From: Deltaproteobacteria bacterium
Lineage (GTDB): Bacteria > Myxococcota_A > UBA9042 > DTJE01
Assembly: GCA_029555025.1 (NCBI GenBank)
Contig: JAKPTZ010000115.1
Location: forward strand, 24,898 to 88,897
Direction of reading: 5' to 3'
Length of the DNA stretch: 64,000 nucleotides
The notes beneath the pieces were generated by a model. It made no database searches and was not told where the DNA came from. It saw only the letters and a program-made list of their open reading frames with translations. The translations under genes and the position numbers were made by a program. Of this stretch, positions 8,178 through 48,800 are shown piece after piece (the first letter of the stretch is position 1; each line of letters begins with the position of its first letter).

Positions 8178-10610
8178 TCAGGTCGTTTTCCGCTTTCCGG
8201 CCTTTCCAGGTCGGTCCCGTTCGGGCTTTTCCTTCTCGCTCATCGCCTTGACCGCAGCGTCGGTCGCGGCGAAAACCGAACCTTTTTCCCAGGTTCCGTC
8301 TTCCTGCCTGGTTCCGGCCGGCAAGCCGGTCATGATTTCGACCACTTCCTCGATGCGGCGAGCCGCCCAGATGTTGAAGCGTCGTTTCCTGACGGCCTCC
8401 TCGACCTCCGGTTCCAGAACCAGGTTGCGCTGGTTCGCGGCAGGAATGATCACACCCTGGCGTCCGGTCAGTCCGCGTTCACTGCAAATCTTGAAAAAGC
8501 CCTCGATCTTCTCGTTGACGCCACCGACCGCCTGCACGTCTCCGGTCTGGTTCAGGCTTCCGGTGACGGCGACGTCCTGCCTCAGCGGAATCCGGGAAAG
8601 CGAGGACAGAACCGCGCAGAATTCCGCGCATGAAGCCGAGTCCCCGTCGATGCGTCCGTACGACTGTTCGACCGTCAGGCTGACCGTGATGCCGGGAACG
8701 CGATTCTTTGCGAACATGTCGCCCAGAAGGCCGGAAATGATGAGGACGGCCTTGTTGAAGGTGTTTCCGGAAAGCCTTGCCTCGCGTTCGACGTTGATGA
8801 TTCCGGCGGAACCCCGGAATGATTTGGCGGTGATCCTCAGAGGCATCCCGAAAGTCTGGTCGGCCATCTGATAAACGGCAAGTCCGTTGATGACGCCGGG
8901 AATCGCGCCCTCGGAATCGATGATGACGGTTCCGTTCAGGACCATCTCGACGCCCTTGTCCCAGGAGAGCGAAACGCGATCCTTGCGCTGGCGGCGCGCG
9001 GCGATGATGTGCCTGGCGTCGATGATTGCCGATCCTTCCTGGCGTGCCAGGTGATCCGCCTCGATCAGCAGGTTCAGAACCAGATTGAACTGAAGCGTGA
9101 GTCTGTCGGACGCGTCGGCCATCCGCATGGAGTATTCGATCACGTCCGCGACGCCGGCCGACGAAACGGGAAGCAGTCCGTCACGTTCACTGGTCGTGGC
9201 TATGAACCTTGCATATTCCTGGAGCATGTCGTCGGAAACGGCGACTTCCGAGTCGAACTCCGCCTTGATCTGGAAGGCTTTTCCAAATTCCTCGTCTGCC
9301 TCGTGCAGAAGCTGGTACAGGAAATTGCTGCCTACCAGGATTACCTTGCAGGACATCGGGATCGGATTCGGCCGGATGGTCGTGGTAGGCAGGAACTGGT
9401 AGGCCTCGCCCATCTCGGCAATCTCCAGCAGCCTTTGACGCAGCACGGTCTTCAAGGCCTCCCACGCAAACGGATACGACACCAGTTCCCGGGTATGCAG
9501 AATCAGGAATCCGCCGTTTGCCCGAAGCAGAGAGCCAGCCTTGATCATCGTGAAATCGGTTGAATAGATGCCGTTTTCAACGCGCTTCTCGATGCGCCCG
9601 ACAAGGTTGTGGTAAGTCGGGGTGTTTTCGAAGACGACCGGCGCGCCCCTGACTTCGGAGTTGTCCACCAGCAGGTTGACCTTGTATTCGGTCATTGCCG
9701 CTTCGATGAGTTGTTTGGTCATGCCGTCGTCGGAGTCCTCGGCCAGGAATCGCGGGATGTTTTCAAGAATGCTGGCCCTGACCGCCTCCAGGTGGGCTAT
9801 CACTTCCGGACAAGATGAGTATTCGGCCAGCAGGGCCTTCATCGACTCATCCATCGTTTCGGCACACAGGCGGTTGTTGGCCACCTGAACCTTCGCATGG
9901 ACAATCTGCTCCGCTTCCTTGTTCTTTTCGAAAAACGCCGCGATTGCAGGCTCGATTGCCCTGCGGTTTTCATCGATGGTCTTCTTCTGGGCGTCCGAAA
10001 GCTTCGCGTATTCCTTGTTGCTGATGGCCTCGCCGTCAACCACGGGTATGGTGACCAGGCCTTCCTTTGTCTGCTTCACCTGGAAGTTGTTCCTGCCTGC
10101 CACCTCGTCCAGCCGTTCGAAGGCCTCGTTTTCGATGGCCAGTCCCTCGTTCAGGATTTCCTGAAGCGTTTCCTGGTGTTTCTGGGTGTGAAAGGCCCTG
10201 GGCAGGTTCTTCTTCAGCGAAGAAATGAACTCGTCCATCTGACCGCGGAACTGAAGCCCCTTGCCTGCCGGCAGGCTGAAAACCCTTGGGGTTTCGGGGT
10301 GCTTGAAGTTATTGACCATGCACCAGTCGGGGGGCGTGGGCATCTGCCTGGATGCCTCATCGACAAGTCTTTTGAGAAGGCTCGACTTGCCGGTTCCGGA
10401 GGCACCTGAAACGTAGATGTTGAAGTTTCGCTTCTGGATCGAAAGGCCGAGTTCGAGAGCTTTCTGGGCCCGGGCCTGCTCAACGACCCCGACAAGCTTC
10501 TCGACGTGCCTTGTGCTCCGGAACTTGAATATGGAAGGGTTGATGTGGCGATGTACCTGCTTCCAGCCCAGGCGGCAGTCTTTTTCAGCGGACGGTTTTT
10601 TCGCGGCCAT
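8178..10610 (-). CDS. Lon-like ATP-dependent protease (AAA+ ATPase plus S16 peptidase domain; BrxL/LonC/YcbZ-like)
   Basis: 810 aa. The N-terminal Walker A is VSGASGTGKSS. The C-terminal S16 domain carries a catalytic Ser motif (GDSASCAEF) and a Lys (NEKIEGFF). The long AAA region resembles stand-alone Lon-like proteases. Confidence 0.75.
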   Translation of the reverse strand: MAAKKPSAEKDCRLGWKQVHRHINPSIFKFRSTRHVEKLVGVVEQARAQKALELGLSIQKRNFNIYVSGASGTGKSSLLKRLVDEASRQMPTPPDWCMVNNFKHPETPRVFSLPAGKGLQFRGQMDEFISSLKKNLPRAFHTQKHQETLQEILNEGLAIENEAFERLDEVAGRNNFQVKQTKEGLVTIPVVDGEAISNKEYAKLSDAQKKTIDENRRAIEPAIAAFFEKNKEAEQIVHAKVQVANNRLCAETMDESMKALLAEYSSCPEVIAHLEAVRASILENIPRFLAEDSDDGMTKQLIEAAMTEYKVNLLVDNSEVRGAPVVFENTPTYHNLVGRIEKRVENGIYSTDFTMIKAGSLLRANGGFLILHTRELVSYPFAWEALKTVLRQRLLEIAEMGEAYQFLPTTTIRPNPIPMSCKVILVGSNFLYQLLHEADEEFGKAFQIKAEFDSEVAVSDDMLQEYARFIATTSERDGLLPVSSAGVADVIEYSMRMADASDRLTLQFNLVLNLLIEADHLARQEGSAIIDARHIIAARRQRKDRVSLSWDKGVEMVLNGTVIIDSEGAIPGVINGLAVYQMADQTFGMPLRITAKSFRGSAGIINVEREARLSGNTFNKAVLIISGLLGDMFAKNRVPGITVSLTVEQSYGRIDGDSASCAEFCAVLSSLSRIPLRQDVAVTGSLNQTGDVQAVGGVNEKIEGFFKICSERGLTGRQGVIIPAANQRNLVLEPEVEEAVRKRRFNIWAARRIEEVVEIMTGLPAGTRQEDGTWEKGSVFAATDAAVKAMSEKEKPERDRPGKAGKRKTT

Positions 10611-10692: not shown

Positions 10693-12318
10693 TCACCTTG
10701 CGGAGCCCTGACGGAGTTCAGGTGGAAGGTATCGCGAAAAGGCCCCGGCACCGGAGTTGGAACCGAAGCTTGCCCCCGATTCCAGCCCGCTTCCGGCGGT
10801 GGCCTTGACAGCGACCCCGCCGCGGGAGGCGTCGGTGACCGTCCAGTTCCTGCCGCCGATGATGACGTCGGCACCGGCGGCCGTCCTGGCCGACACCATG
10901 CCGACGGTGCGCCCTGTCCCCGCATCCACGACTTTGATCGAGGCGGAGTCGGCGATATTGGAGTGTATGCGTCCCCGTTCGCCCATGTCCATCAATCTTG
11001 ACGAGGCCCGAAGCACTTCGCCGGCGCTTTCGTCCAGGAAGCCTTCGGTACGCAGGTGATCGACGATCGCGTCGATGACCGGGCCAGGTGCGACGGGGTC
11101 AAGGATTCTTCGGATCGTGGCGCGTCGAAGTCCCTTTCTGTTTTCAAACAGAAGGGAAAATATCTGCTGAACCGCGACCGACAGGTCTGGCAGCCTTTCT
11201 GACTGCGGGAATGCCTGTTCGACGACGTCATTCATCAGCATCGCGAATCTTCCTTCATCCCCCGGTCCGTCCGGAACGAATATGGCCCTCATGCCGTCGC
11301 GCCGCCTGCAACCGCGGCCGACCCTCTGCTGGAGCGATGCGACCGTTTCGGGCGCTCCGAACAGAACGACTGCATCGACGTCACCGATATCGACCCCGAG
11401 TTCCATGGTGGATGTCGAGACCAGGATGCCTGCCTCGAAGTACCTGAAAGCCTTTTCAACGTCCTCGCGTTCCCGGCGGGCGAGGCTGGCGTGGTGCACC
11501 ATGACTCTCTCGGCCGGCCACGGGCCCGTCCTGAGCACCAGGGCCGCGGTTTCCTCGGTCTTCTTCCTGGTGTTGCAGAATATTATGGCCTTCGTGAGCC
11601 GTTCCGAACGCAGAAGCGCGAGTGCGGACGGGATGTCGGGGGACACCGTGGCATCCAGAGGCCTTCTTCTGTCATCCCGAACGACCTCGGGCCTTTCACC
11701 GAAAAGTCGCGTTCCCAGGCCGGCGGGATCCCCGACGGTCGCCGTTACGGCAATCAGCCGGGGCCTGGCCGCCGACCGTTTCATCTGAATCCGTCGAATC
11801 AGTATCCGCAACTGGTCGCCGCGCGCGGTACCGTCCATCAGGTGCGCCTCGTCGATGACGATCGCGTGAAGGTTGTCGAAAGCCGCCGGATGGCGGCAAA
11901 GCAGCGAATCGAAAGACTCCGGCGTCGTAATCAGGAGGTCGGTGTGATCCCTTCCAACCGGTGAAGGGCGGTCGCCGGTCCTGACCCGGCTGCTCATCTT
12001 CATTGCCGCGGCCGGCTCGCGAACGCGGTTTTCGATGTCGTTAGCCAGCGCCCTGGTGGGAACGATGTACAGAATGCCAACCTGCGGACGGGGATCTTCA
12101 ATGGCGGCCATTTCCTCGAAAAGCGGGGCGAGCACGGCCTCGGTCTTGCCGGAAGCGGCGGGCGCGACAACGACGGCATCCCGCCCCGAGGCAATGACCG
12201 GAATCGCAAGTTCCTGGATCCCGGTAAGGTTGCCGAAGCGGGCCAGAAATGCCGGAAACGCGCGCGGAAGGGATCTGGCGGCATCCATCCGGCTGAATCT
12301 GTCGATGCCCGGTTTCAA
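10693..12318 (-). CDS. Lhr-like DEAH-box helicase (BrxHI-like)
   Basis: Motif I APAASGKTEAVLAP (Lhr-type GKTEA), DEAH in VIDEAH, helicase C motifs, and a C-terminal extension. The TTG start overlaps the stop of the upstream ATPase. Confidence 0.75.
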   Translation of the reverse strand: MKPGIDRFSRMDAARSLPRAFPAFLARFGNLTGIQELAIPVIASGRDAVVVAPAASGKTEAVLAPLFEEMAAIEDPRPQVGILYIVPTRALANDIENRVREPAAAMKMSSRVRTGDRPSPVGRDHTDLLITTPESFDSLLCRHPAAFDNLHAIVIDEAHLMDGTARGDQLRILIRRIQMKRSAARPRLIAVTATVGDPAGLGTRLFGERPEVVRDDRRRPLDATVSPDIPSALALLRSERLTKAIIFCNTRKKTEETAALVLRTGPWPAERVMVHHASLARREREDVEKAFRYFEAGILVSTSTMELGVDIGDVDAVVLFGAPETVASLQQRVGRGCRRRDGMRAIFVPDGPGDEGRFAMLMNDVVEQAFPQSERLPDLSVAVQQIFSLLFENRKGLRRATIRRILDPVAPGPVIDAIVDHLRTEGFLDESAGEVLRASSRLMDMGERGRIHSNIADSASIKVVDAGTGRTVGMVSARTAAGADVIIGGRNWTVTDASRGGVAVKATAGSGLESGASFGSNSGAGAFSRYLPPELRQGSAR

Positions 12319-13832
12319 ATCGCGTCGCCTTCGCCACCGGAAACGACCATCTGTTCCACGTCGCCATCGGGATAGAAGCGGACGTAGTCGAGGGCTTCGA
12401 TCACGGACTTGATGAACGTTCTGGTCGATTGTATCCGGTCGGCCGTGTACAGCAGCCTGAACAGCCTGTCCTGGCGCTTCTTCTCCAGTTTCACGCCGTA
12501 CGTGGTGTCATAAGTGCGGCATATCCTGCGGAAAAGCTCGCGAAGCTGATCCATTGAAAGGACATCGACCTGGACCCTTGTAATCGTTTCCCTGGTCCGG
12601 CTGAATTCATCCTGGAGCGTGCCCGGAGTAAGCGCGAACGCGACCTTCAGGGCACCGGGAATTCCGGTGGTGTATCTGACGGGGTGATGTGCCGAGTATA
12701 TCAGGCCGGATACCGCGCCCTGGATTGTTTCGGCTCGAATGAGTTCCTCGTCCATGAGTACGTCGTCATCGTTGGCTGTAAGGACAAGCCCGCGGAAGAA
12801 GTTCATTCCGCGCTGGGCCTGGTATCGGTACATTACGCTTCCGGCCACTTCCGCCTCGTCCAGAAGAACCAGCAGGCCCATCATTCCAAGGACTTCCGAT
12901 GCTGCCCTGGCAGTTGCCGAAAGTATGTTGCAGTAGATGTTGGCACAGGTCGAGTAATCGTAAAGCGTCTTCTTGCGCCCGATCCGGCCTTCCCCGCGGG
13001 CTTCGATGAAGTCCCATTCTTCCTCGGTAAGTCCTGGCCTTTCGTGCGGCTCCTCCTCCTGGAGCCGCTCCAGGACGCTTGCAAAAAGCCAGTGGTCGCC
13101 AAGGACATCCCGCCAGCCCGGCCGGGACGCCACTTCACGCCAGAATCCACGGAAGTTCAACACCCGGTCATCAACGACGGCCTTGAATCCGGTGACCAGA
13201 TGCCGGTAAGCCTTCTTGGGAAAAGCTGCCGATGCCTCGGATGGATCGAAACCCGCCATGGCGACCGCGTAGCCCAGTTGCTCCGCTTCGCCCGCCAGGA
13301 ATCGCAGCAGGTGGCTCTTGCCCGCGCCGTAGGCCCCTTCCACCAGGGCTGCGCCCTCGGCATGGTCGTGAAGGAATTCCATCAGTTGCCCGACTTCATC
13401 CTTGCGCCCGACCGTCCACTCCCCGATCGATGAAGATGGCACGATCCCAAGCCTGAAGGCCTCTATAGCCATGCTTGCACTGACCGGCCGGTTTTCCGGC
13501 AGCATTCGATACACCGGAGCCCGATGTTTCCTGGCTCCTGCAGGTTCCTCGCTCGCTGGAGCCTGTCCCCCAAGCAGGCGGAGGATTGCGTCAAGGGATG
13601 TGCTGGAGGGTGCCGTCGATCGAACAGCCGGAGCCTCGTCTTCGACGAGCTTCAGCCCTTCACCGGCACGGACAAGTTCCCGCGCCGGGATCCACAGGCT
13701 GTAAACCCCGAAGTTGACACGGAATTCAAATCCGCCAATCCGTGAACCAAGCACCGTGCCGTCGCCATATGTGGCATGCGTCACGGCATCGCCCTTTTCG
13801 AACCTATTCATAGATATCGTCCGGGTCGGCAT
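12315..13832 (-). CDS. P-loop ATPase, paralog 2 (BrxD/DUF2791-like candidate)
   Basis: Walker A EGAYGAGKSHLL and Walker B LLVLLDEAE. It is a clear paralog of the upstream ATPase. Its 3' end overlaps the helicase start. Confidence 0.65.
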   Translation of the reverse strand: MPTRTISMNRFEKGDAVTHATYGDGTVLGSRIGGFEFRVNFGVYSLWIPARELVRAGEGLKLVEDEAPAVRSTAPSSTSLDAILRLLGGQAPASEEPAGARKHRAPVYRMLPENRPVSASMAIEAFRLGIVPSSSIGEWTVGRKDEVGQLMEFLHDHAEGAALVEGAYGAGKSHLLRFLAGEAEQLGYAVAMAGFDPSEASAAFPKKAYRHLVTGFKAVVDDRVLNFRGFWREVASRPGWRDVLGDHWLFASVLERLQEEEPHERPGLTEEEWDFIEARGEGRIGRKKTLYDYSTCANIYCNILSATARAASEVLGMMGLLVLLDEAEVAGSVMYRYQAQRGMNFFRGLVLTANDDDVLMDEELIRAETIQGAVSGLIYSAHHPVRYTTGIPGALKVAFALTPGTLQDEFSRTRETITRVQVDVLSMDQLRELFRRICRTYDTTYGVKLEKKRQDRLFRLLYTADRIQSTRTFIKSVIEALDYVRFYPDGDVEQMVVSGGEGDAI

Positions 13833-15093
13833 CTTCGCCGGGCGAAAGCATTCGCGTGGCGAATTCCTCGTCGATCACGGTGTCCGGTTCGAACCGCAGC
13901 GCGTGCATTGCCCGCACGACGGCCTGGACGAACATTCTCTTGTACCCTATGTCGCCAAAGGCGCGTTCGGCGGTCGCATCCGCGAGAACCCTTACCAGAT
14001 TGCGGGTCTGATCGGCCGGCATGCGGAACTGGTAGGCGTTTTCATAGACGCCGCACAGTTTTCTTCCGATGTCGTTCATCAAGGTCTTCGGATCCCTTGC
14101 GATTCGATCAAGCCGGACTTTGACGCCGGTGGGGTTCGTGTAGTCGAATACCGTCTGAATTCTCTGGCGAAGCGCTTCGTAAGCCGGAGATCGGCCCTCG
14201 GTCAGGAACTGCTCGTTTGGAATGGCATAAAAGACCATCGTGTTCGCGAACGAGGAAGCCCCGCACTGATCAACCATCTCGCGCAGGTTGGCCAGCATCA
14301 GTTCCTTCTGCTTGGAAGTCATCGAGCCGGCCTGTTCGGCCTCGTCGAACAGGATGATGATGCCGCCGAAGCGCAGGTTCCGAACCCACGTCACCAGTGA
14401 TCTGATCGTGGCGAACGCCTGGGATCTGTCAATCGGCTGCAGAACCCCTCCAGCCTTGTGCGACAGCCGATCCCAGCCATCGACGGTAAGGTACTGCAGC
14501 ATTGCGTCGAACTGATCCTGGTCATTGCGGGTCAACGCTTCAATGGCAAGTCGGACGGCCTTCCCGAAATTCGGGTTTTCGCAGCCACGAACCGAATCGG
14601 CCGCAATTGCCCTGATGCGATCTTCCAGTTGTTCGCCGGCGATGCCTTCCTCTTCGGCGATGGCGGTCTTCATGTCGTGATAGACCGCCTTGATGAAGGC
14701 GCCGAGCCCGCGCTCCCCGCCGGTCAGGAGTTCATCCGGCGTCAGTGGACGCATCAGGTTGACCGCGATGGACTTGTAAACCATGTCCAGGCGGTGGAAC
14801 GGCGACGATTCCGCCGAAAGCGGGCAGTATGTGACCAGGTAGTCATGACGCCAGGCAAGCTCGCGGACGCTGTACAGGAAGTGTGTCTTGCCGCCGCCAT
14901 ACGTTCCGACGACGACTTTGAACGACGACCCGCCTTCGCGGACGAATGACTTGAGGTAATCGTCCTCGATCACCTTCAGGTACCCGTCAAGGCCCGAGGA
15001 AAAGAACTGGAAACCCCATTCGGGCGGGGTTCCGGACGAACCGACCACTTCGATAATGTGGCGGGCCTGCCTGGCGGTCAGGTTGTCAACCAT
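13804..15093 (-). CDS. P-loop ATPase, paralog 1 (BrxD/DUF2791-like candidate)
   Basis: Walker A VGTYGGGKTHFL and Walker B IIILFDEAE. I chose the start at the internal Met MVDNLTARQ to avoid a 119-nt overlap with the upstream gene. Confidence 0.62.
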   Translation of the reverse strand: MVDNLTARQARHIIEVVGSSGTPPEWGFQFFSSGLDGYLKVIEDDYLKSFVREGGSSFKVVVGTYGGGKTHFLYSVRELAWRHDYLVTYCPLSAESSPFHRLDMVYKSIAVNLMRPLTPDELLTGGERGLGAFIKAVYHDMKTAIAEEEGIAGEQLEDRIRAIAADSVRGCENPNFGKAVRLAIEALTRNDQDQFDAMLQYLTVDGWDRLSHKAGGVLQPIDRSQAFATIRSLVTWVRNLRFGGIIILFDEAEQAGSMTSKQKELMLANLREMVDQCGASSFANTMVFYAIPNEQFLTEGRSPAYEALRQRIQTVFDYTNPTGVKVRLDRIARDPKTLMNDIGRKLCGVYENAYQFRMPADQTRNLVRVLADATAERAFGDIGYKRMFVQAVVRAMHALRFEPDTVIDEEFATRMLSPGEDADPDDIYE

Positions 15094-15124: not shown

Positions 15125-15988
15125 TCAGGCAGTAACCTTAACAAACCGGAGCGTTGCGAAGTTAACGCCCTCAAGGATTCCAGGTCTCGGCACCCAGAGG
15201 TGATCCCCGGCATTCCTTGTCTGGGACATCGTCGCCACGTCAAGCCTCAGTTCCATTCCCCGGATGATCCGGTTTCTGAGCCTTGACAGATCCGCCGCGA
15301 ATTCCACCCTTCCGTACGACCTGAAGGTCTCCTTTCGCGGATCAATCAGGAAGGCCGGCTTCTGGCGCATAAAGGCGATTTCCGGGATCAGCGACGTGAC
15401 CGGCACGCGGCCCCCGGACTCGGCACCGGTGCGTATCACGGCCAGCCGGTAAGCCTTTTCAAGTTCGGCAAGGAAAGCCGGCTCGTCGAAAGAATCCGGA
15501 AAGAGCCTGCCGTTCTGTTCCCGGATCTGCGCGCAGATGTCTTCGGGATCCAGAGAAGCCGCCGCCAGCCTGTATTTGCCGGGTCCAAGCCATATGGTGC
15601 ACAGGCCCTTTGAACCGAATGTGAATTCCAGCGAGAAAGGCCCGGCCGTCAGCGTGGGAAGGTTTCCGGACACCTTGAAGTCTTCTTCGTTCAGGCGTTT
15701 TGCGACCGCTCCCGCAAGCAGCGCCTTCTCGCGATCAAGGCGGCTGCGGGATTCCGACAGCGTCGCCGCAATCGCCGCCTTCATTGCCGCGGCGCCCGTT
15801 TCCAGCCCGGCGATGTCCCCGATTGCCCGCAACGCCCTTTCGGCCATGTCGATTGATGATGCCAGGTTCCCCTTGCGGTGTTCCCTGGAGAATTCCTCAA
15901 CCGACTTTCCGGCGTTGGCGGCAGCCTTGATGGCCTTCAGGAACGTCTTGACCTGTTCTTCCATGGGCTTCCCCCGGGGTTGCTTCAT
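15125..15988 (-). CDS. Hypothetical protein, first gene of the ATPase/helicase/Lon module
   Basis: 287-aa ORF with coding-like composition, co-directional and closely spaced with the ATPase genes. I recognise no motif. Confidence 0.5.
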   Translation of the reverse strand: MKQPRGKPMEEQVKTFLKAIKAAANAGKSVEEFSREHRKGNLASSIDMAERALRAIGDIAGLETGAAAMKAAIAATLSESRSRLDREKALLAGAVAKRLNEEDFKVSGNLPTLTAGPFSLEFTFGSKGLCTIWLGPGKYRLAAASLDPEDICAQIREQNGRLFPDSFDEPAFLAELEKAYRLAVIRTGAESGGRVPVTSLIPEIAFMRQKPAFLIDPRKETFRSYGRVEFAADLSRLRNRIIRGMELRLDVATMSQTRNAGDHLWVPRPGILEGVNFATLRFVKVTA

Positions 15989-16074
15989 CCGATCCGGGTC
16001 GCCCCGGCCGCGCAGTATTATAAGGCCAAATCAATTTATGGCGATTGAAAGCGTGTAACCTGTCGGGAACTTCG

Positions 16075-17076: not shown

Positions 17077-17309
17077 CGGCCAAATCCGGGTTGTCCATTT
17101 TCGGACAAGTGAAAAAGTACGTCGCGGATTGTAACATGGATCCGTCCGGGCCGGGCCGGACGCCTTCGCGCGCCATGCCGTCAGCCAGAGTGCCGGCCCT
17201 TGTCTGGCGGCGCGTTTCGGGCGATCATGCCGGCTGAAGCGGTCTGAATGTTGTGCGGGGATTGTCTGCCGGGCGTCGCAAGTCGATCGCCGGGCATCGG
17301 AGATTCCAG

Positions 17310-20300
17310 ATGCGAACCGGGTCTTCCGGGATGTTGCCGGTCGTTGCGATGGCGTGTCTATTTGTGTCGTCGTGCGGCAGCCATGTGGAGAAGGCCGATA
17401 TCGGGGGCTCCTGCCGGGAAGACTCCGATTGTCAATCCGCCCTCTGTTTCGCAGACGTATGCATCGATCCCCTGGCGGACCAGGATTGGGACGGTCTTTC
17501 GGCGGGCGATGAAGTTGAAATCGGGCTGGATCCGTTTCACCCGGACAGTGATCGCGACGGCATTCCCGACGGCCTGGAAGTGGGCCCCGAGCTTGCGACT
17601 CCGGCGGATTATGACGGGGACGGCGTCATCGACGCTCTTGAGTCCGCTTTTTCGGATTCTGACGGGGACTGCCTTCCGGATCAGTATGATCCTCTCGATG
17701 CGCTCGGGCCGGCCGGCTCAAGTCAGATGGTGCCGGTGCTGTGCATGACAGCCGGGGTCTGCGGGGCCGCAATGAACACCATTGTCGCTACCTGCGACGG
17801 CTCGAAGGTAACGTGCAGCTATGAAGGCGTGCCAGGCTGGAACGCCGCGGAATGGATGTGTGACGGAAAGGACAACAACTGCGACGGTCGAACCGACGAA
17901 GGTTTTCTTCACGAAGGCTTGTCCATCGGACTTCCCTGCCTTGGGGCAGGAAGTTGTGGCCCGGGTATCGTCGAGTGCGATGACTCGGGCTTTTCGACCA
18001 GGTGTTCGTCAAACCCCGGCGCTTCTGGCGACAGATCCATGCCCGAGGTGTGCGACGGTCTCGACAACGATTGCGACGGCTTGACCGACAACGGCATGTC
18101 GTGGAAGGGCGTGCCCCTCGGGGAACGTTGTGACGGCGAAGGCGAGTGCGGCATCGGCAAGGTCGAATGCCTGGCCGACAGGACGGCTTCCTGTTCAACC
18201 ATGAAGGGTGGAAGTCACGAACAGATCCAGGAGGAATCCTGTGACAACCTTGACAACGACTGTGATGGACGAACCGACGAGACATTTTTCGGCAACGCTT
18301 CCGAACTGTGCGTTCCCCGCGGCGTCTGCGCCCTGTTCCCCAACATGATTTCGTTGAAGTGCGAGCAGGGGATCCTGAAATGCGACTTCAGTGCTGTGCC
18401 TGGGTATTCGGGAAGTTCCGAGATGTTCTGTGATGGACAGGATGACGATTGCGACGGGCTGGTTGACGAGGAACTGTCGTTCGCGGTGACCGAACCTGGC
18501 GCCGTGATAAGGCTTCCCGGCCAGTCCTGCGGTTCGGGCGCCTGTGCCGGCGGGGTCGTCACGTGCTCGCCGAGTTCGATGTCCGGCATGTGTTCCACCA
18601 CGCCCCTTGCCGCGCCGGAGAAGTGCGATGGAATCGATGACGACTGCGACGGGTACATAGACAACGGTTTCGCCCTGAGTTGGAAGCCGGCGCTTGAAAC
18701 CATCATGGACAGGGAGCCGCAGGCGCTTGTTTCGTCGCGGATGGCCGTGGTCGAGTATTCCCTGGAGGATCCGCCTGAACCAGGTGAACCGCCTGCCGGC
18801 ATATATGTATGCGGCGGGGCCGTTGGAAGTCCTGAGAACGGTTCGTCCGGGATTTCAAGGCGTTGCTGGCTGTACAGCTTTGATTCGCATCGTTTCGATC
18901 GACTTCCCGACGGGCCCGAAGTCGATTCGGGGGCGATGGTTCATGACAGGGCGGGCGGAAGCCTGCTGATGGTGGGTCGTCTGTTCGCGTCCGGCGAAGT
19001 CGCCGTTTTCCGGATGAACGGAATCGATTTCGGATGGAGCAGGCTGCCCTGGGAACTGGAAAGTGGCGAGGTTCTTGCCGCCGGAGTGGATCCGGTTGAA
19101 AACACCCTGAATATCCTCACGAATGGTGATTCCGGGCTTCTGGTGAGCATGGTCGGGCTGTCCGATGGCTCCGTCCTGACCGTTCAGGCGGGCGAGCGCG
19201 TCTCTGCCGGCTCCTTTGCCGCCGGTTCGCCCTCCGGGGGGTTTGTCCTGTTTCATGCCTGCAACGAGCTTGCCGGCACTGTGGTCGAACATGTCTCGCC
19301 GGACGGGCAGGTCAACGGGCTGCCGCTTGCAGGACAGAGTCCATGCATGTCCTTCGGCGCGGCGGTCATGCCGATCCCGGGACGCATCGTCGCGATTGAG
19401 GGCAGGGCACTTGACGGCTCGGTCCAGGCCACAAGGGAATTCCTGCTGGGCGATGACCTGTGGCACCACGAAAGGATCACGGTTCCCGGCGGCCAGGGAT
19501 CCGTCATGCATCCCGCGATGGCCTCCTCTGGCGACACCGTCTATGCATTTTCCGGGGAGTATGGTGATGGAGGGGCACTGCGGCGTGTGATCCGGCTGGA
19601 TCGCGAATCGACGGAATGGCTGGTTGACAGCTTCGTAAGCGGTCCATCTCCCAGGGCGGGCGGCGTTGCGTTCGTTTCGCGCCTGACGGCGGCGGCCTAT
19701 TTCATTGGCGGCTATTCGGATGAACCGGGCGGGCCTCAGCCAGTCCAGGATGTGTGGAAGATTGATCTGGTCAATCCGCGGATTGGACAGATTGCGGTGT
19801 CGGGCGAACCAGGGGCGGTTATAGGTGCTGCTGCGGCCATCAATGATTCCGGCCAGACCGCCTACATTTTCGGGGGGCTCGATTCGCCGCCGGGGCCCGA
19901 CTCCAGGCCGGTTAGCAGGTTCCTTCGGTTCAACTGCATTCAGTCGAGGTTTGATTCGATTCAGTCGGGGGAAGGCGGTCCGACGGCACGTTATGGACAC
20001 TCGCTTGTCTGGGCCGGTGACAGGTTGCTTCTTTACGGCGGCCTGAACGACACCGGTTTCCTTTCCGATCTCTGGTCCTGGGCTCCGGACGAAGGCTGGA
20101 TCTTCATTGGATATTTCGAACTCAGCTATGGCCACCAGGCGTTCTGGGACAATCCCGGCAAGCGCATGCTGGTCGTCGGGGGCAGGCCAGGTGGGGGCCT
20201 TCGCGCATACTATCCCGCCACATCCACGTGGAAAAGCCTGCTGTCCGGGGTTCTGTTCGATTCGTATGAAGGCCACGGCTGGTTTGACGAGCAATCCGGC

Positions 20301-20522
20301 AGCGTGCTTTATCTTTCATCGACATCCAGCGACGCGGTGGTCGTGACTTTCCTTGAAGACGGGCTTGTCGATCAGGTCATCCCCGGACTGCAGCCGGATT
20401 TGATCGATGCGTTCGTGGTTTATGATCCGTTCGGGCGCCGGGCCATGATGCTCGGTGGCAGGGATCCCTCGAACGGGACCGTCGGAACCGTTTCGCAAAT
20501 CGATCAGTCCTGCGGGCGATGA
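17310..20522 (+). CDS. Large secreted lipoprotein with TSP3-like Ca-binding repeats, MopE-like Cys motifs and a Kelch/beta-propeller C-terminus
   Basis: Lipoprotein signal MRTGSSGMLPVVAMACLFVSSC and D-rich DxDxDG repeats. Five CDGxDNDCDGxxDE motifs (putative metal-binding motif type) are present. The C-terminal region has Kelch-like repeats. Confidence 0.68.
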   Translation: MRTGSSGMLPVVAMACLFVSSCGSHVEKADIGGSCREDSDCQSALCFADVCIDPLADQDWDGLSAGDEVEIGLDPFHPDSDRDGIPDGLEVGPELATPADYDGDGVIDALESAFSDSDGDCLPDQYDPLDALGPAGSSQMVPVLCMTAGVCGAAMNTIVATCDGSKVTCSYEGVPGWNAAEWMCDGKDNNCDGRTDEGFLHEGLSIGLPCLGAGSCGPGIVECDDSGFSTRCSSNPGASGDRSMPEVCDGLDNDCDGLTDNGMSWKGVPLGERCDGEGECGIGKVECLADRTASCSTMKGGSHEQIQEESCDNLDNDCDGRTDETFFGNASELCVPRGVCALFPNMISLKCEQGILKCDFSAVPGYSGSSEMFCDGQDDDCDGLVDEELSFAVTEPGAVIRLPGQSCGSGACAGGVVTCSPSSMSGMCSTTPLAAPEKCDGIDDDCDGYIDNGFALSWKPALETIMDREPQALVSSRMAVVEYSLEDPPEPGEPPAGIYVCGGAVGSPENGSSGISRRCWLYSFDSHRFDRLPDGPEVDSGAMVHDRAGGSLLMVGRLFASGEVAVFRMNGIDFGWSRLPWELESGEVLAAGVDPVENTLNILTNGDSGLLVSMVGLSDGSVLTVQAGERVSAGSFAAGSPSGGFVLFHACNELAGTVVEHVSPDGQVNGLPLAGQSPCMSFGAAVMPIPGRIVAIEGRALDGSVQATREFLLGDDLWHHERITVPGGQGSVMHPAMASSGDTVYAFSGEYGDGGALRRVIRLDRESTEWLVDSFVSGPSPRAGGVAFVSRLTAAAYFIGGYSDEPGGPQPVQDVWKIDLVNPRIGQIAVSGEPGAVIGAAAAINDSGQTAYIFGGLDSPPGPDSRPVSRFLRFNCIQSRFDSIQSGEGGPTARYGHSLVWAGDRLLLYGGLNDTGFLSDLWSWAPDEGWIFIGYFELSYGHQAFWDNPGKRMLVVGGRPGGGLRAYYPATSTWKSLLSGVLFDSYEGHGWFDEQSGSVLYLSSTSSDAVVVTFLEDGLVDQVIPGLQPDLIDAFVVYDPFGRRAMMLGGRDPSNGTVGTVSQIDQSCGR

Positions 20523-45835: not shown

Positions 45836-48800
45836 TTACTGGCAGGCGGCGACGCCCATTCCGGCGAAGTAGTTGTTGCCGTAGCTGGTCCACTGGAGGG
45901 CCGGGTCGAACACGTCGTTGATGATTGTATCCGGAACGCGCACGGATCTGCACAGGGTGTCGTCAGCCGTCGTAGGCCCAGGCGTTGTTCCCCATTCGGT
46001 TCCAGGGTCGAAGCCGACCTGCCCGAACGAGTCGATGACCTCGCCGTCGCAGCGCAGGACAACCGCGTCGTCCCCGTTGAACTGAAGCACGGTGCCGGCG
46101 ACCTGGTCGCAGTTCGGAAGCGCCGTCGCGTCCAGGCCGCTGTGGCAGACGACCCAGGTGTCCCCGGCCGCAAGTGACGATGCGGTCAGGTTGATCGTGT
46201 ATCCGACCGTTGAAGCCCCGTTCTGGTATCCGGTAATGGTGCAAGAGGTCAGGTCGGTTGCAACGGTGCCGATGTTCAGGATCTCGATGAACTTGTTGCT
46301 GCTGGAACCTTCCCCGTATTCGCTGAAGATCAACTGCGGCGGGGGCGTGCAGATGTCGGTTGTGGCGCATTCGGTTTCGTCGCAGTCGGATATGCCGTCG
46401 AGATCGTTGTCCAGGCCGTCGGAACAGCACGCATCGGTGGCCTTTTCATGTCCGTCCTGGTAACAGGCGTCCGAACATTCGTACGTTCCAAGTCCAAGAT
46501 AGTTGTCGGCCGCGAAGTGAATCCAGCCCGCTGTCGGAATGAAGGCATCGTCGCGCACCCTGTCGCCGACCGAAACATAGCATTCCCGACGCATGGTCGT
46601 GTCAACAGTGGTCTTCCCGGAGTCATCCCAGCCACCGGCGCCGGGATCGGTGCCGATCTGGCCGAATACGTCCATCAGGGAGTTTTCGCACCTAAGGACG
46701 ATCGTGTCGTTGCCGTTGACCGAGAAGAGGCCTGACAGGGCGTCGCAGTATGGCGCCAGCGCAAGGTCGGCGTCGTCGTCGCAAACGACCCATGTGTCGC
46801 GGTCATGCAATATTCCGTCACGCGCGATCGCCATCGCGTAAGCCATTTCCGATGTTCCGTCGGGGTATCCCTCGAGGACGCAATTGTTCAGCATCACGTC
46901 GCGTCCCGACAGGTTGGTGATTTCAATCGCATTGTTGACCCCGGTGCCTTCCACGTATTCGCTGATCACCAGGTTGGGGGCGTCGTTGGCGACAATCATC
47001 CGTCCAGCCTGGTTATCCTGGTCGAAGCCGGTGTCCGAACCGTCAAGGTCGCACAGGGTCCATGAACGGCCGCTGTCGGCGCTGAAACGGATGGCGAAGT
47101 CGTATTCGCCGGCAGTCGTCGGCAGGAAAAGGTTGTAGTAGTAAGTATCGGCGTCCTCGTACGGGGAATTGTTTCCCAGGCCGACGAATGCTGCCGTCCA
47201 GGACCATGTGTCGGGAGAACTGCCCTTCGGGCCATATCCGACTTCGGCCTTGACCGCTGGCGGGTTGTCGTTGCCTGTGGTCACATCCGTCATGCCCGCC
47301 TCGATGATCCAGCCGAAAACCTGGAAATAGGTTCCGGTCTGGGAGATGAACGGCGAGTCGGCCTTCAACTGGCAGAAATCAACCGGTTCCTGGCATACGG
47401 GATCGTCGTCGCAGTCGGAATCGTCGCAGTCGGTTACCCCGTCGTTGTCCTCGTCCGTGCCATCATCACAGTCGGTTTCCTCGGTCGGTTCGATGCAGTA
47501 AGGATCAGTCGCGCAGTCCGGGTCGTTGCAGTCGGTCTGGAGGTCGCCGTCGTTGTCCGCGTGGTCGTCGCATGCGGTTTCGACCCCGGCGGTCACAACG
47601 ATCGAACCGGTGGTCGCCGCCGAGTAGCCGTCGATGGTGCCGGCCGGTTCAAGATCCGCGTAAGTCCACGTGTCGCCGCCGTCGGTGCTGAAACGGAACG
47701 CGTAGTCGAAGGTTCCGACCGGAACGTCGTCGAAGGAAACCCCGTACCTGTCGTCCGAACCGTCAATGTCGTCGAAATAGACCGCGTCGTACCAGGACCA
47801 CAGGATATGTCCGTCGGGGTTGCTGCCGTCAGGGCCCCATCCACCCTGGGCCATCACTCCCAGGCCCTGGCCCGCGACGTTGGTGATGCCCTGCACGAAT
47901 ACCCTGCCGAAAAGTACTTCAGGGATCTCGGCGAAGACCCAGGCGCCGGTGCCGGGCATCATGACGGCCGCGTACCCGATGACCGGCGGCAGGCATTCGA
48001 CCGCCTCGTCGCAGTCGGGATCCATGCAGTCCTTCAGTCCGTCAAGATCGTCGTCATTCAGGTTGTCGCAACAGGTTTCCCTGCCACCCACATGGCATGC
48101 CTGGGCGCAGAGGTTTGAACCAAGATCCAGGAAGGAGTCCCGCGGGAAAGACCACCATTCGAGCCCGGGATCGAACTCGTTCGAAAGGTCGGTGTCCCCG
48201 AAGATTACATCACAATGACGGCGCAGGGTGTGTCCGACGCTGGTGACTTCGCCCGTTCCCCATCCCGAGGCGCCCGGGTTTTCCCCGCGCCGGCCGAACG
48301 AATCCATCAGCTTGTCTTCGCACGTCAGGCTGATTGTGTCGTTGCCGTTGAAATTCAAGAGGGATCTGAATTCGTCACAGTAAGGGGTAAGGTCGGTCGA
48401 GACCCCGGTCTGGCACATCACATAGGACGCCGCATCCTGAAGAACGCCGTCCTCGACATTGAAGATGGTCGATGGGCTGACCGCCCCGTCGGTGTAAATG
48501 GATATCGCGCAGTTCTCAAGGTTGAGGTCACGGCCGCTCAGGTTCAGCAACTCGATCGCCTTGTCGTTCCCCGTGCCGTCAACGTATTCGGTGATGAGCA
48601 CGATCGGATCCGACACGATTTCCAGCTTGCCGGCGTCCGCCACGTCGTATCCGTCGTCGGTTCCGTCAAGATCGCAGTACTTCCAGGAATATCCGCCGTC
48701 GGCCGAGAACCTGAAAGCCATATCGTAATGGCCTTCATCCGCGACCGGCACCACGAATGAATACCGGTAGCTGTCGGCGTCGTCCCTTCCGCTCAGGTTG

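What the first reader, a model, noticed from the sequence alone, without database searches (positions are those of the whole stretch)
12315..15093. Tandem paralogous ATPases with Walker A GxYGxGK(T/S)H and Walker B hhhhDEAE, probably a hetero-oligomeric pair
The two adjacent proteins are 479 aa (about 429 aa from the internal start I chose) and 505 aa. They share an N-terminal region (A..I..G..W..G) and Walker A motifs (GTYGGGKTHFLYSV versus GAYGAGKSHLLRFL). They also share a long insert of about 170 aa before Walker B (ILFDEAEQ versus LVLLDEAEV), and C-terminal helical domains.

An adjacent duplication of a BrxD-like ATPase is unusual. BREX loci normally carry a single brxD. The duplication suggests a heteromeric ring or a division into sensor and motor roles.
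Basis: seen in the sequence. Interest (0 to 1): 0.6.

Follow-up and report, generated by a model that had tools for sequence, protein, structure and literature searches.

The report
Two-ATPase, helicase module related to Shango
The two neighbouring ATPase genes are real, very old paralogues that always travel together with a helicase and an unknown protein as a four-gene unit found in many uncultured bacteria, a so far unnamed relative of the Shango and BREX BrxD-BrxHI anti-phage modules rather than part of a BREX locus.

Summary
Two adjacent minus-strand genes (13804-15093 and 12315-13811) both encode PF10923 (BrxC/BrxD-type, ORC/Cdc6-like) AAA+ ATPases with intact Walker A and B motifs.

They are not a recent duplication. 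Pairwise identity is marginal, but family profiles align over 345 columns (hhalign E 2.6e-37).

The pair belongs to a four-gene cassette: an unknown 279-aa protein, ATPase 1, ATPase 2 and an Lhr/BrxHI-like helicase. The full cassette, or as much as the contig holds, recurs in most of 43 loci from about ten bacterial phyla and one ANME-1 archaeon. The four genes co-evolve (r 0.92-0.94).

ATPase 1 resembles BrxD. ATPase 2 is divergent, lacks ATPase 1's invariant YEALxQR (putative arginine-finger) motif, and carries an N-terminal UvrD/PcrA-type Tudor domain.

No BREX core gene (PglZ, PglX, BrxC) is in the window, and there is no TerB protein, so this is neither BREX nor canonical Shango.

The most likely function is a hetero-oligomeric AAA+ pair that loads or gates the helicase on nucleic acid, probably in defence. 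Housekeeping flanks and stable synteny keep a genome-maintenance role open.

The heteromer itself was not tested. I found no published description.

The parts
16017..16044 (-). Sigma-70-like promoter match (TCGCCA-16-TATAAT, 10 of 12) just upstream of the first cassette gene. A candidate only.
   Evidence: The number of matches in the region is no higher than in shuffles, so this is weak evidence.
15125..15964 (-). geneX, the first cassette gene. It is 279 aa from MEEQ; an alternative ATG at 15988 gives 287 aa. It belongs to an unnamed family. The N-terminal part is a three-helix, MIT-like bundle and the C-terminal part (residues 98-276) is an alpha/beta domain with no recognisable relative.
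13804..15093 (-). ATPase 1 (429 aa), a BrxD-like ORC/Cdc6-clade AAA+ ATPase. Walker A is G63-H71 (nt 14881-14907), Walker B is D250-E253 (nt 14335-14346), and the invariant motif is Y305-R311 (YEALRQR).
   Evidence: PF10923 over the full length, 4.8e-38. PADLOC BrxD 1.3e-36 and SngB 3e-14. 26% identity to a genuine BREX-2 BrxD over 363 aa, E 2e-25. Invariant residues.
12315..13811 (-). ATPase 2 (498 aa; alternative ATG at 13832), a divergent paralogue. It has an N-terminal UvrD/PcrA-type Tudor domain (residues 1-50, nt 13662-13811), a disordered linker, and an AAA+ module from about residue 106. Walker A is G159-H167 (nt 13311-13337) and Walker B is D318-E321 (nt 12849-12860).
   Evidence: PF10923 N-terminal part only, 4.9e-15. 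AF2 pLDDT 87, with five short strands at residues 9-48. Foldseek top hit is ORC1, 7jgr_A, 1.6e-5. The Tudor profile against PDB gives UvrD 7egt_B at 5.1e-7, and the top 8 hits are all UvrD/PcrA C-terminal domains. Invariant residues.
10693..12318 (-). SF2 helicase (541 aa from a TTG that overlaps the ATPase 2 stop as TTGA; alternative ATG at 12288). It is Lhr/Ski2-like and related to BrxHI and SngC. It contains DEAD, Helicase_C and winged-helix domains plus a C-terminal region, and it lacks the last ~170 aa of BrxHI.
   Evidence: Pfam DEAD 3.9e-31 and Helicase_C 2.6e-19. PADLOC BrxHI 2.3e-73 (profile positions 21-519 of 698) and SngC 2.6e-56. 29% identity over 534 aa to a BREX-2 BrxHI, E 3e-40. 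Closest solved structures are Lhr 5v9x/7lhl and YprA 6znp. Overlap shown.

Best explanation
The two ATPases are the central pair of a self-contained four-gene operon: geneX, ATPase 1, ATPase 2, helicase. It is a two-ATPase relative of the BrxD-BrxHI dyad of type 2 BREX and of the SngB-SngC pair of Shango.

Shown:
- Both ATPases are ORC/Cdc6-like AAA+ proteins with intact ATP-binding and hydrolysis motifs.
- They are ancient paralogues.
- The four genes are inherited and evolve as one unit across many phyla.
- ATPase 2 alone carries a UvrD/PcrA-type Tudor domain.
- ATPase 1 alone keeps the BrxD-like YEALxQR motif, at the position where an AAA+ arginine finger is expected.

Inferred:
- The two ATPases assemble into a hetero-oligomer in which ATPase 1 supplies the trans-acting arginine.
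- ATPase 2 supplies targeting. Through its Tudor domain it would dock on RNA polymerase or UvrB, the partners this domain has in UvrD and PcrA.
- Like other ORC/Cdc6-type proteins, the complex recognises a nucleic-acid structure and loads or licenses the Lhr-like 3'-5' helicase.
- geneX, which lacks universally conserved catalytic-type residues, acts as an adaptor or sensor in the place that the TerB protein SngA occupies in Shango.
- The most likely biological role is interference with invading DNA (anti-phage or anti-plasmid). This rests only on the roles of the known relatives.
For: -
- Full-length paralogy: hhalign E 2.6e-37 over 345 columns.
- Cassette conservation: geneX-ATP1-ATP2-Hel in the same order and strand, or as much of it as the contig holds, in most of 43 loci. 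These come from Myxococcota, Desulfobacterota, Gemmatimonadota, Nitrospinota, WOR-3, KSB1, Sumerlaeota, Acidobacteriota, Planctomycetota and an ANME-1 archaeon.
- Overlapping stop and start codons in the window and in many loci.
- Distance matrices of the four genes correlate at r = 0.92-0.94.
- Walker A and B are invariant in both paralogues.
- YEALxQR is invariant in ATPase 1 (37/37) and its QR is shared with BrxD, but the segment is deleted in ATPase 2.
- The Tudor homology is shown and the beta-barrel in the AF2 model.
- The AAA+ fold has ORC1 as top structural match.
- Genuine BREX-2 loci have one brxD followed by a DEAD helicase.
- The literature describes BrxD as an ORC/Cdc6 AAA+ in a tight dyad with BrxHI and proposes it as a helicase loader (PMC12839542). 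Shango is TerB plus ATPase plus DEAD helicase and protects against phages.
- The distribution suggests horizontal transfer. Window ATPase 1 is 54% identical to a Desulfobacterales copy and 42% to the ANME-1 copy, but only 26-33% to several other Myxococcota copies.
Against: - No direct test of an ATPase 1-ATPase 2 contact was possible. There was no multimer prediction and too few sequences for residue covariation.
- No effector (nuclease, toxin) is recognisable.
- Flanking genes in about 40 loci are overwhelmingly housekeeping: glycosyltransferases, FBPase, tRNA synthetase, radical SAM and OmpA-like. Only isolated defence hits occur.
- The cassette is absent from 72,556 plasmids, 50,697 phage records and the viral contigs.
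- In the window's own clade it has stayed between rluD and lon while the flanking proteins diverged to 53-75% identity. ATPase 1 (74-83%) is more conserved than its housekeeping neighbours.
- The Tudor domain is missing in 15 of 41 orthologues, so it cannot be essential to the core mechanism.
- Calling R311 the arginine finger rests on its position alone.
Confidence: 0.55

Rival explanations
1. The cassette is a housekeeping genome-maintenance or transcription-coupled module, not an immune system. The Tudor domain of ATPase 2 tethers the AAA+ pair to RNA polymerase or UvrB, and the pair loads the Lhr-like helicase at stalled transcription complexes, R-loops or lesions in the cell's own DNA.
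For: - The Tudor domain is homologous to the UvrD/PcrA C-terminal domain. From established knowledge, that domain binds RNA polymerase and UvrB.
- The helicase is closest to Lhr and YprA/MrfA repair helicases among solved structures. Its best NCBIfam hit is the ligase-associated DNA damage response DEXH helicase, 4.7e-54 but below cut-off.
- Flanks are housekeeping.
- The rluD-cassette-lon-nadK synteny is stable across relatives with 53-75% Lon identity, and ATPase 1 is strongly conserved.
- No copies occur on phages, plasmids or viral contigs.
- GC content matches the neighbours.
Against: - All characterised relatives of the ATPase-helicase dyad (BrxD-BrxHI, SngB-SngC) belong to defence systems.
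- The distribution is sparse and does not follow phylum boundaries. That fits a mobile accessory unit better than a core repair pathway.
- A close Lon-NadK relative (L050) has no cassette within 10 kb upstream of Lon.
- 15 of 41 orthologues lack the Tudor domain.
Confidence: 0.3
2. One reading: a BREX locus in which brxD has been duplicated, with the two copies serving the BREX machinery.
For: Both proteins hit the BrxC_BrxD Pfam family and the PADLOC BrxD model, and a BrxHI-like helicase follows. A Lon-family protease lies downstream, and BrxL is Lon-like.
Against: - No PglZ, PglX, BrxC, BrxA or BrxB is present in the 64-kb window.
- Both proteins fall far below the BrxD equivalog cut-off.
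- The Lon protein is LonB/LonC-type (AAA_32 4.3e-50) with only a 7e-4 hit to BrxL.
- Lon accompanies the cassette only in the closest relatives. It occurs without the cassette in L050 and in roughly 70 more distant Lon loci, many on short contigs.
- None of the about 40 related loci shows a BREX core next to the cassette, apart from one isolated BrxC hit.
Confidence: 0.03
3. A recent tandem duplication in which one copy is decaying, or an annotation artefact of one split gene.
For: The genes are adjacent on the same strand and the reading frames overlap.
Against: - The two families are only about 18% identical at profile level, and each has its own orthologues in about 40 loci.
- Both keep invariant Walker motifs.
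- Both give confident or full-length models or matches.
- Each has identical full-length database proteins.
Confidence: 0.01

Closest known systems
Shango anti-phage system (SngA TerB protein, SngB ATPase, SngC DEAD/DEAH helicase)
   Same: It is a free-standing operon with no methyltransferase or PglZ. It couples a PF10923-type ATPase to an Lhr-like helicase, preceded by a non-enzymatic accessory protein. PADLOC SngC matches the helicase (2.6e-56) and SngB matches both ATPases (3e-14 and 2.6e-9).
   Different: There are two paralogous ATPases instead of one. The first gene has no TerB, TerB-N or TerB-C domain and no detectable similarity to any named family. ATPase 2 has a Tudor domain. The BrxD and BrxHI models score better than the Sng models.
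BrxD-BrxHI dyad of type 2 (and type 6) BREX
   Same: ATPase 1 aligns with genuine BrxD over 363 aa (26% identity, 2e-25), including the QR motif. The helicase aligns with BrxHI over 534 aa (29% identity, 3e-40). The gene order is ATPase then helicase. Both ATPases are ORC/Cdc6-like AAA+.
   Different: No BREX core genes are present. Scores are below the BrxD equivalog cut-off. There is a second, divergent ATPase between BrxD-like ATPase 1 and the helicase. The helicase lacks the BrxHI C-terminal ~170 aa. geneX is an additional component.
ORC/Cdc6-type initiator and helicase-loader assemblies made of paralogous AAA+ subunits (archaeal Orc1/Cdc6 paralogues, eukaryotic ORC-Cdc6)
   Same: The AAA+ fold has ORC1 as best structural match. 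Paralogous subunits lie next to a helicase gene. One paralogue apparently lacks the trans-acting arginine motif, as inactive or asymmetric subunits do in heteromeric AAA+ loaders (established knowledge).
   Different: No winged-helix DNA-binding domain is predicted at the C-terminus, which is an all-helical bundle. The client helicase is a monomeric-type SF2 Lhr-like enzyme, not a ring helicase. No origin function is implied.
UvrD/PcrA C-terminal Tudor domain
   Same: The N-terminal 50 residues of ATPase 2 match it by profile (7egt_B 5.1e-7; also 6yi2, 7egs, 5dma, 4c2t) and fold as a five-stranded barrel.
   Different: Here the domain is N-terminal and fused to an AAA+ ATPase rather than to an SF1 helicase. 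The binding partner is unknown.

Membership tests
BREX BrxD (NCBIfam NF033438 equivalog) | Score at or above the curated equivalog cut-off (350 bits) | tested here: not met
   ATPase 1 scores 125.2 bits and ATPase 2 scores 41.5 bits.
BREX BrxD (NCBIfam NF033438 equivalog) | Encoded in a locus with the BREX core (PglZ, BrxC/PglY, PglX) | tested here: not met
   A PADLOC scan of all large ORFs of the window found no PglZ, PglX or BrxC. Genuine BREX-2 loci fetched for comparison do have pglX-pglZ-brxD-helicase.
Pfam PF10923 BrxC_BrxD (DUF2791) P-loop family | Match above the gathering score (22.2 bits) | tested here: met
   ATPase 1 scores 131.6 bits over the full length. ATPase 2 scores 55.8 bits over the N-terminal part only. 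Profile-profile comparison shows full-length homology between the two.
Shango (SngABC) | TerB-domain protein SngA | tested here: not met
   geneX has no TerB, TerB-N or TerB-C hit even at E <= 10 and no PADLOC hit. Fold searches give only three-helix bundles.
Shango (SngABC) | A single SngB ATPase and an SngC helicase in a three-gene operon | tested here: not met
   The helicase matches SngC (2.6e-56). However, two ATPase genes are present and conserved in about 40 loci, giving a four-gene operon.
Shango (SngABC) | Anti-phage activity | not testable with these tools
   Requires plaque or liquid infection assays.
AAA+ ATPases, ORC/Cdc6 clade | Walker A GxxGxGK[ST], Walker B hhhhDE, and an AAA+ alpha/beta core plus helical lid | tested here: met
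   The motifs are invariant in both paralogues. For the ATPase 2 model, the best PDB match is ORC1 7jgr_A, followed by other AAA+ proteins.
AAA+ ATPases, ORC/Cdc6 clade | Trans-acting arginine finger (box VII) | tested here: inconclusive
   ATPase 1 has an invariant R311 in YEALRQR at the expected position. In ATPase 2 this segment is deleted and no conserved Arg lies nearby. The assignment is by position only.
UvrD/PcrA Tudor domain (PF21196) | Sequence-profile match and a five-stranded beta-barrel | tested here: met
   The profile of 29 N-terminal domains hits UvrD/PcrA C-terminal domains as the top 8 PDB matches, best 5.1e-7. The single-sequence Pfam hit is only 0.072. The AF2 model shows five strands with pLDDT 84-95.
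UvrD/PcrA Tudor domain (PF21196) | Binding to RNA polymerase beta or UvrB | not testable with these tools
   Needs pull-down, NMR or a complex prediction.
Lhr/Ski2-like SF2 helicases (BrxHI type) | DEAD plus Helicase_C core followed by a winged helix, with similarity to Lhr and BrxHI | tested here: met
   Pfam DEAD, Helicase_C and weak SelB-wing hits. PADLOC BrxHI 2.3e-73. Lhr 5v9x at 2.8e-23. BrxHI at 3e-40.
Lhr/Ski2-like SF2 helicases (BrxHI type) | BrxHI C-terminal Lhr-CTD-like domain | tested here: not met
   The match covers profile positions 21-519 of 698. The protein ends about 170 residues before BrxHI does. Longer helicases of 665-690 aa occur in other cassette lineages.

The most novel reading that the evidence does not exclude
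The cassette is a transcription-coupled surveillance machine of a kind not yet described. A heteromeric ORC/Cdc6-like AAA+ pair rides on RNA polymerase through the UvrD-type Tudor domain of one subunit and recognises an aberrant transcription or R-loop state, on foreign or on self DNA. With the novel protein geneX, it then loads an Lhr-like helicase there. This would give the first mechanistic handle on what BrxD-BrxHI and Shango modules sense.
Probability: 0.15. Interest if true: 0.8.

Novelty: new variant of a known kind. Interest (0 to 1): 0.55.

Why it matters
The roles of BrxD-BrxHI in BREX and the mechanism of Shango are still unknown. This cassette keeps the same ATPase-helicase core but splits the ATPase into two specialised paralogues. 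One is catalytically BrxD-like. The other carries a docking domain whose partners in other proteins are known.

That separation offers testable hypotheses:
- Which subunit hydrolyses ATP.
- Which subunit targets the complex.
- Whether RNA polymerase or UvrB is the docking platform.

The work also defines an unnamed protein family (geneX) of about 680 clusters at 50% identity, with no Pfam model and a confidently predicted but unmatched C-terminal fold.

If the module turns out to be a housekeeping repair device rather than an immune system, it would suggest that the defence dyads were recruited from, or to, genome maintenance.

Tried and rejected
- **Lon as part of the system (BrxL analogue): rejected.** The downstream Lon protease (8178-10610) is LonB/LonC-type, with only a 7e-4 hit to BrxL. 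It is linked to the cassette only in close relatives (L001, L046, L048, L052). It occurs without the cassette in L050 and in roughly 70 more distant Lon loci, many on short contigs.
- **A fifth conserved gene: rejected.** The recurrent gene after the helicase in WOR-3-type loci is a glycosyltransferase, and its recurrence reflects lineage synteny.
- **Defence-island context: weak.** PADLOC and Pfam scans of 121 flanking proteins, plus 9 further large flanking proteins, gave mostly housekeeping families. Only isolated BrxC, MADS and kinase hits appeared.
- **Mobile-element carriage: none found.** There were no hits in viral contigs, phage records or plasmids. The plasmid search returned only three genuine BrxD genes.
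- **Literature:** searches for Shango, SngB, SngC, DUF2791, PF10923, BrxD, BrxHI and TerB-N/TerB-C found no description of a two-ATPase cassette. The Anantharaman 2012 Ter paper (PMC4104200) is not held, so I could not check whether it mentions such an operon.
Full report
**1. What is in the sequence**

On the minus strand there is a tight run of genes:
- geneX, 15125-15964.
- ATPase 1, 13804-15093.
- ATPase 2, 12315-13811.
- An SF2 helicase, 10693-12318.

A Lon-family protease (8178-10610), a NAD-kinase-like gene and a GH4 glycosidase follow. An rluD-like gene lies upstream.

ATPase 2 most likely starts at 13811, which matches an identical 498-aa protein. There its ATG overlaps the ATPase 1 stop codon (ATGAATAG). 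The ATPase 2 stop overlaps a possible TTG start of the helicase (TTGA).

**2. Are the two ATPases paralogues?**

Both proteins hit Pfam PF10923 (BrxC_BrxD, formerly DUF2791):
- ATPase 1 matches over the full profile (4.8e-38).
- ATPase 2 matches only over the first 100 positions (4.9e-15).

Direct BLASTP is weak. It finds 27% identity over 98 C-terminal residues (3e-8), plus the P-loop.

I built profiles from 37 and 38 orthologues taken from related loci. These align over 345 columns with 99.9% probability, E 2.6e-37 and 18% identity.

So the homology is full-length but very old. Genuine BrxD proteins from two BREX-2 plasmid loci score 162-171 bits against the ATPase 1 profile and 96-109 bits against the ATPase 2 profile. 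The two families score only 71-90 bits against each other. ATPase 1 is therefore the BrxD-like member, and ATPase 2 is a separate, more derived lineage.

Neither is a pseudogene. Walker A (GxYGxGK[ST]H) and Walker B (DE) are invariant in every orthologue of both.

**3. The conserved unit**

A scan of one genome per GTDB species with the ATPase 2 alignment returned 43 loci.
- In about 40 of them, ATPase 1 lies immediately upstream of ATPase 2 on the same strand.
- In about 33, geneX precedes ATPase 1.
- In about 30, the helicase follows. Several exceptions are contig ends.

The loci come from Myxococcota, Desulfobacterota, Gemmatimonadota, Nitrospinota, WOR-3, KSB1, Sumerlaeota, Acidobacteriota, Planctomycetota, a Burkholderiales MAG and an ANME-1 archaeon.

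Four-base overlaps between ATPase 1 and ATPase 2, and between ATPase 2 and the helicase, are frequent.

Pairwise distance matrices of the four genes across 21 cassettes correlate at r = 0.92-0.94. The four genes are therefore inherited as one block. Mean pairwise identities are:

| Gene | Mean pairwise identity |
|---|---|
| ATPase 1 | 41% |
| Helicase | 39% |
| ATPase 2 | 34% |
| geneX | 26% |

Similarity does not follow taxonomy. Window ATPase 1 is 54% identical to a Desulfobacterales copy and 42% to the archaeal copy, but only 26-33% to several other Myxococcota copies. This points to horizontal transfer of the whole cassette.

Variants exist:
- A Syntrophomonadaceae locus (L043) has three tandem PF10923 genes before the helicase.
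- An Acidobacteriota locus (L032) has a PF09820 ATPase gene inserted between ATPase 2 and the helicase.

**4. The parts**

*ATPase 2.* The AF2 model is confident (pLDDT 87). Its best PDB match is ORC1, followed by other AAA+ proteins. This agrees with the published assignment of BrxD to the ORC/Cdc6 clade (PMC12839542).

The first 50 residues form a five-stranded barrel. A profile of this segment from 29 orthologues hits the C-terminal Tudor domains of UvrD and PcrA as the top eight PDB matches (7egt_B at 5.1e-7; also 6yi2, 7egs, 5dma, 4c2t, 1qhh, 9dqs and 1pjr). From established knowledge, that domain is the RNA-polymerase- and UvrB-binding module of UvrD/PcrA. It is present in 26 of 41 orthologues.

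*ATPase 1.* It has an invariant YEAL[KR]QR motif (Y305-R311, 37/37) between the sensor-1 strand and strand 5, where an AAA+ arginine finger is expected. BrxD shares the QR. In ATPase 2 this segment is deleted, no conserved arginine lies nearby, and a ~40-residue insertion precedes the sensor-1 strand instead. The two paralogues are thus complementary rather than redundant.

*Helicase.* It is Lhr/Ski2-like:
- PADLOC BrxHI 2.3e-73 and SngC 2.6e-56.
- 29% identity over 534 residues to a BREX-2 BrxHI.
- Lhr and YprA are the nearest solved structures.
- It lacks the last ~170 residues of BrxHI.

*geneX.* It has no hit in Pfam, PADLOC, NCBIfam or PDB sequences. Its AF2 model is confident (pLDDT 90). 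The model shows an N-terminal three-helix bundle (MIT-like, a generic fold) and a C-terminal alpha/beta domain with no structural match.

The geneX family has 684 clusters at 50% identity, almost all 270-295 aa long. Across phyla only A244 and G266 are invariant, and P103, Q201, F205, P209 and R219 nearly so. This argues against an enzyme.

**5. What it is not**

It is not a BREX locus.
- No PglZ, PglX, BrxC, BrxA or BrxB appears in the window.
- Both ATPases fall far below the BrxD equivalog cut-off.
- Real BREX-2 loci fetched for comparison have one brxD between pglZ and the helicase.

It is not canonical Shango. There is no TerB protein, and there are two ATPases instead of one.

The Lon protease is not part of the module.
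- It is LonB/LonC-type.
- It accompanies the cassette only in the window's close relatives (L001, L046, L048, L052).
- Lon-NadK occurs without the cassette in L050, and Lon occurs alone in roughly 70 further loci, many of them on short contigs.

**6. Function**

The only characterised relatives of the ATPase-helicase dyad belong to anti-phage systems: BREX-2 and Shango. BrxD has been proposed to load or activate BrxHI.

On that basis, together with the sparse, transfer-like distribution, I consider a defence role the most likely. The two AAA+ paralogues would form a hetero-oligomer that gates the helicase, and geneX would act as adaptor or sensor.

The evidence for defence is indirect, and several observations pull the other way:
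- Flanks are housekeeping in nearly all loci.
- No copies were found on phages, plasmids or viral contigs.
- In the window's clade the cassette has stayed between rluD and lon, while Lon diverged to 53-75% identity. Over the same span ATPase 1 stayed at 74-83%.
- The Tudor domain and the Lhr-like helicase both have repair and transcription associations.

I therefore keep a genome-maintenance reading at about 0.3.

The heteromer itself was not tested. No multimer prediction was available.

**7. Novelty**

PADLOC-DB v2 has no model for geneX and does not recognise the cassette. Literature searches found no description of it. One possibly relevant older paper could not be read.

I class it as a new variant of a known kind, the Shango / BrxD-BrxHI type of module. 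It has three distinguishing features:
- An obligatory pair of specialised AAA+ paralogues.
- A UvrD-type Tudor domain on one of them.
- A new accessory protein family.

Noticed in passing
window 8178-10610 (-): An 810-aa LonB/LonC-type protease (AAA_32, LonB LID, LonC helical, Lon_C) lies 82 nt downstream of the helicase. It is syntenic with the cassette only in close relatives and is always followed by a NAD-kinase-like gene there. It is not BrxL.
   Followed up: yes
L043 5359-9128 (+), Syntrophomonadaceae MAG: Three tandem PF10923 ATPase genes (397, 394 and 451 aa) precede the helicase instead of two. No geneX was detected.
   Followed up: partly
L032 9672-10997 (+), Acidobacteriota MAG: A PF09820 'Predicted AAA-ATPase' gene (3.2e-54) is inserted between ATPase 2 and the helicase of an otherwise normal cassette.
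   Followed up: partly
P0303 (366 aa) and P0307 (469 aa), distant geneX homologues: These two longer family members carry an N-terminal extension with a borderline Rho_N (SAP-like) motif, at 25.4 and 22.7 bits against a cut-off of 24.9. This hints at nucleic-acid binding.
   Followed up: partly
window 17253-20522 (+): A 1089-aa protein with five MopE-type Cu-binding motifs and Kelch beta-propeller repeats. A similar Kelch protein sits between the two ATPases' region in L031, and a MopE/RCC1 protein follows the cassette in L030. This is probably lineage-typical Myxococcota and Planctomycetota content.
   Followed up: no
window 45836-51199 (-): A very long ORF (1787 aa). It was not examined individually. 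It was included in the PADLOC scan of the window's ORFs, whose output does not say which ORF gave which of the six hits, none of them a BREX core gene.
   Followed up: no
window, one ORF among 20504-63988: One protein matches the RtcR/PspF-type sigma-54 activator models strongly (1.4e-120). The scan output does not say which ORF it is.
   Followed up: no
L021 155-2434 (-) and L015 1501-3054 (-): A second, divergently oriented SF2 helicase lies upstream of the cassette. In L021 it is YprA/MrfA-like, with DEAD, an HRQ1 winged-helix domain and an MZB Zn-binding domain.
   Followed up: partly
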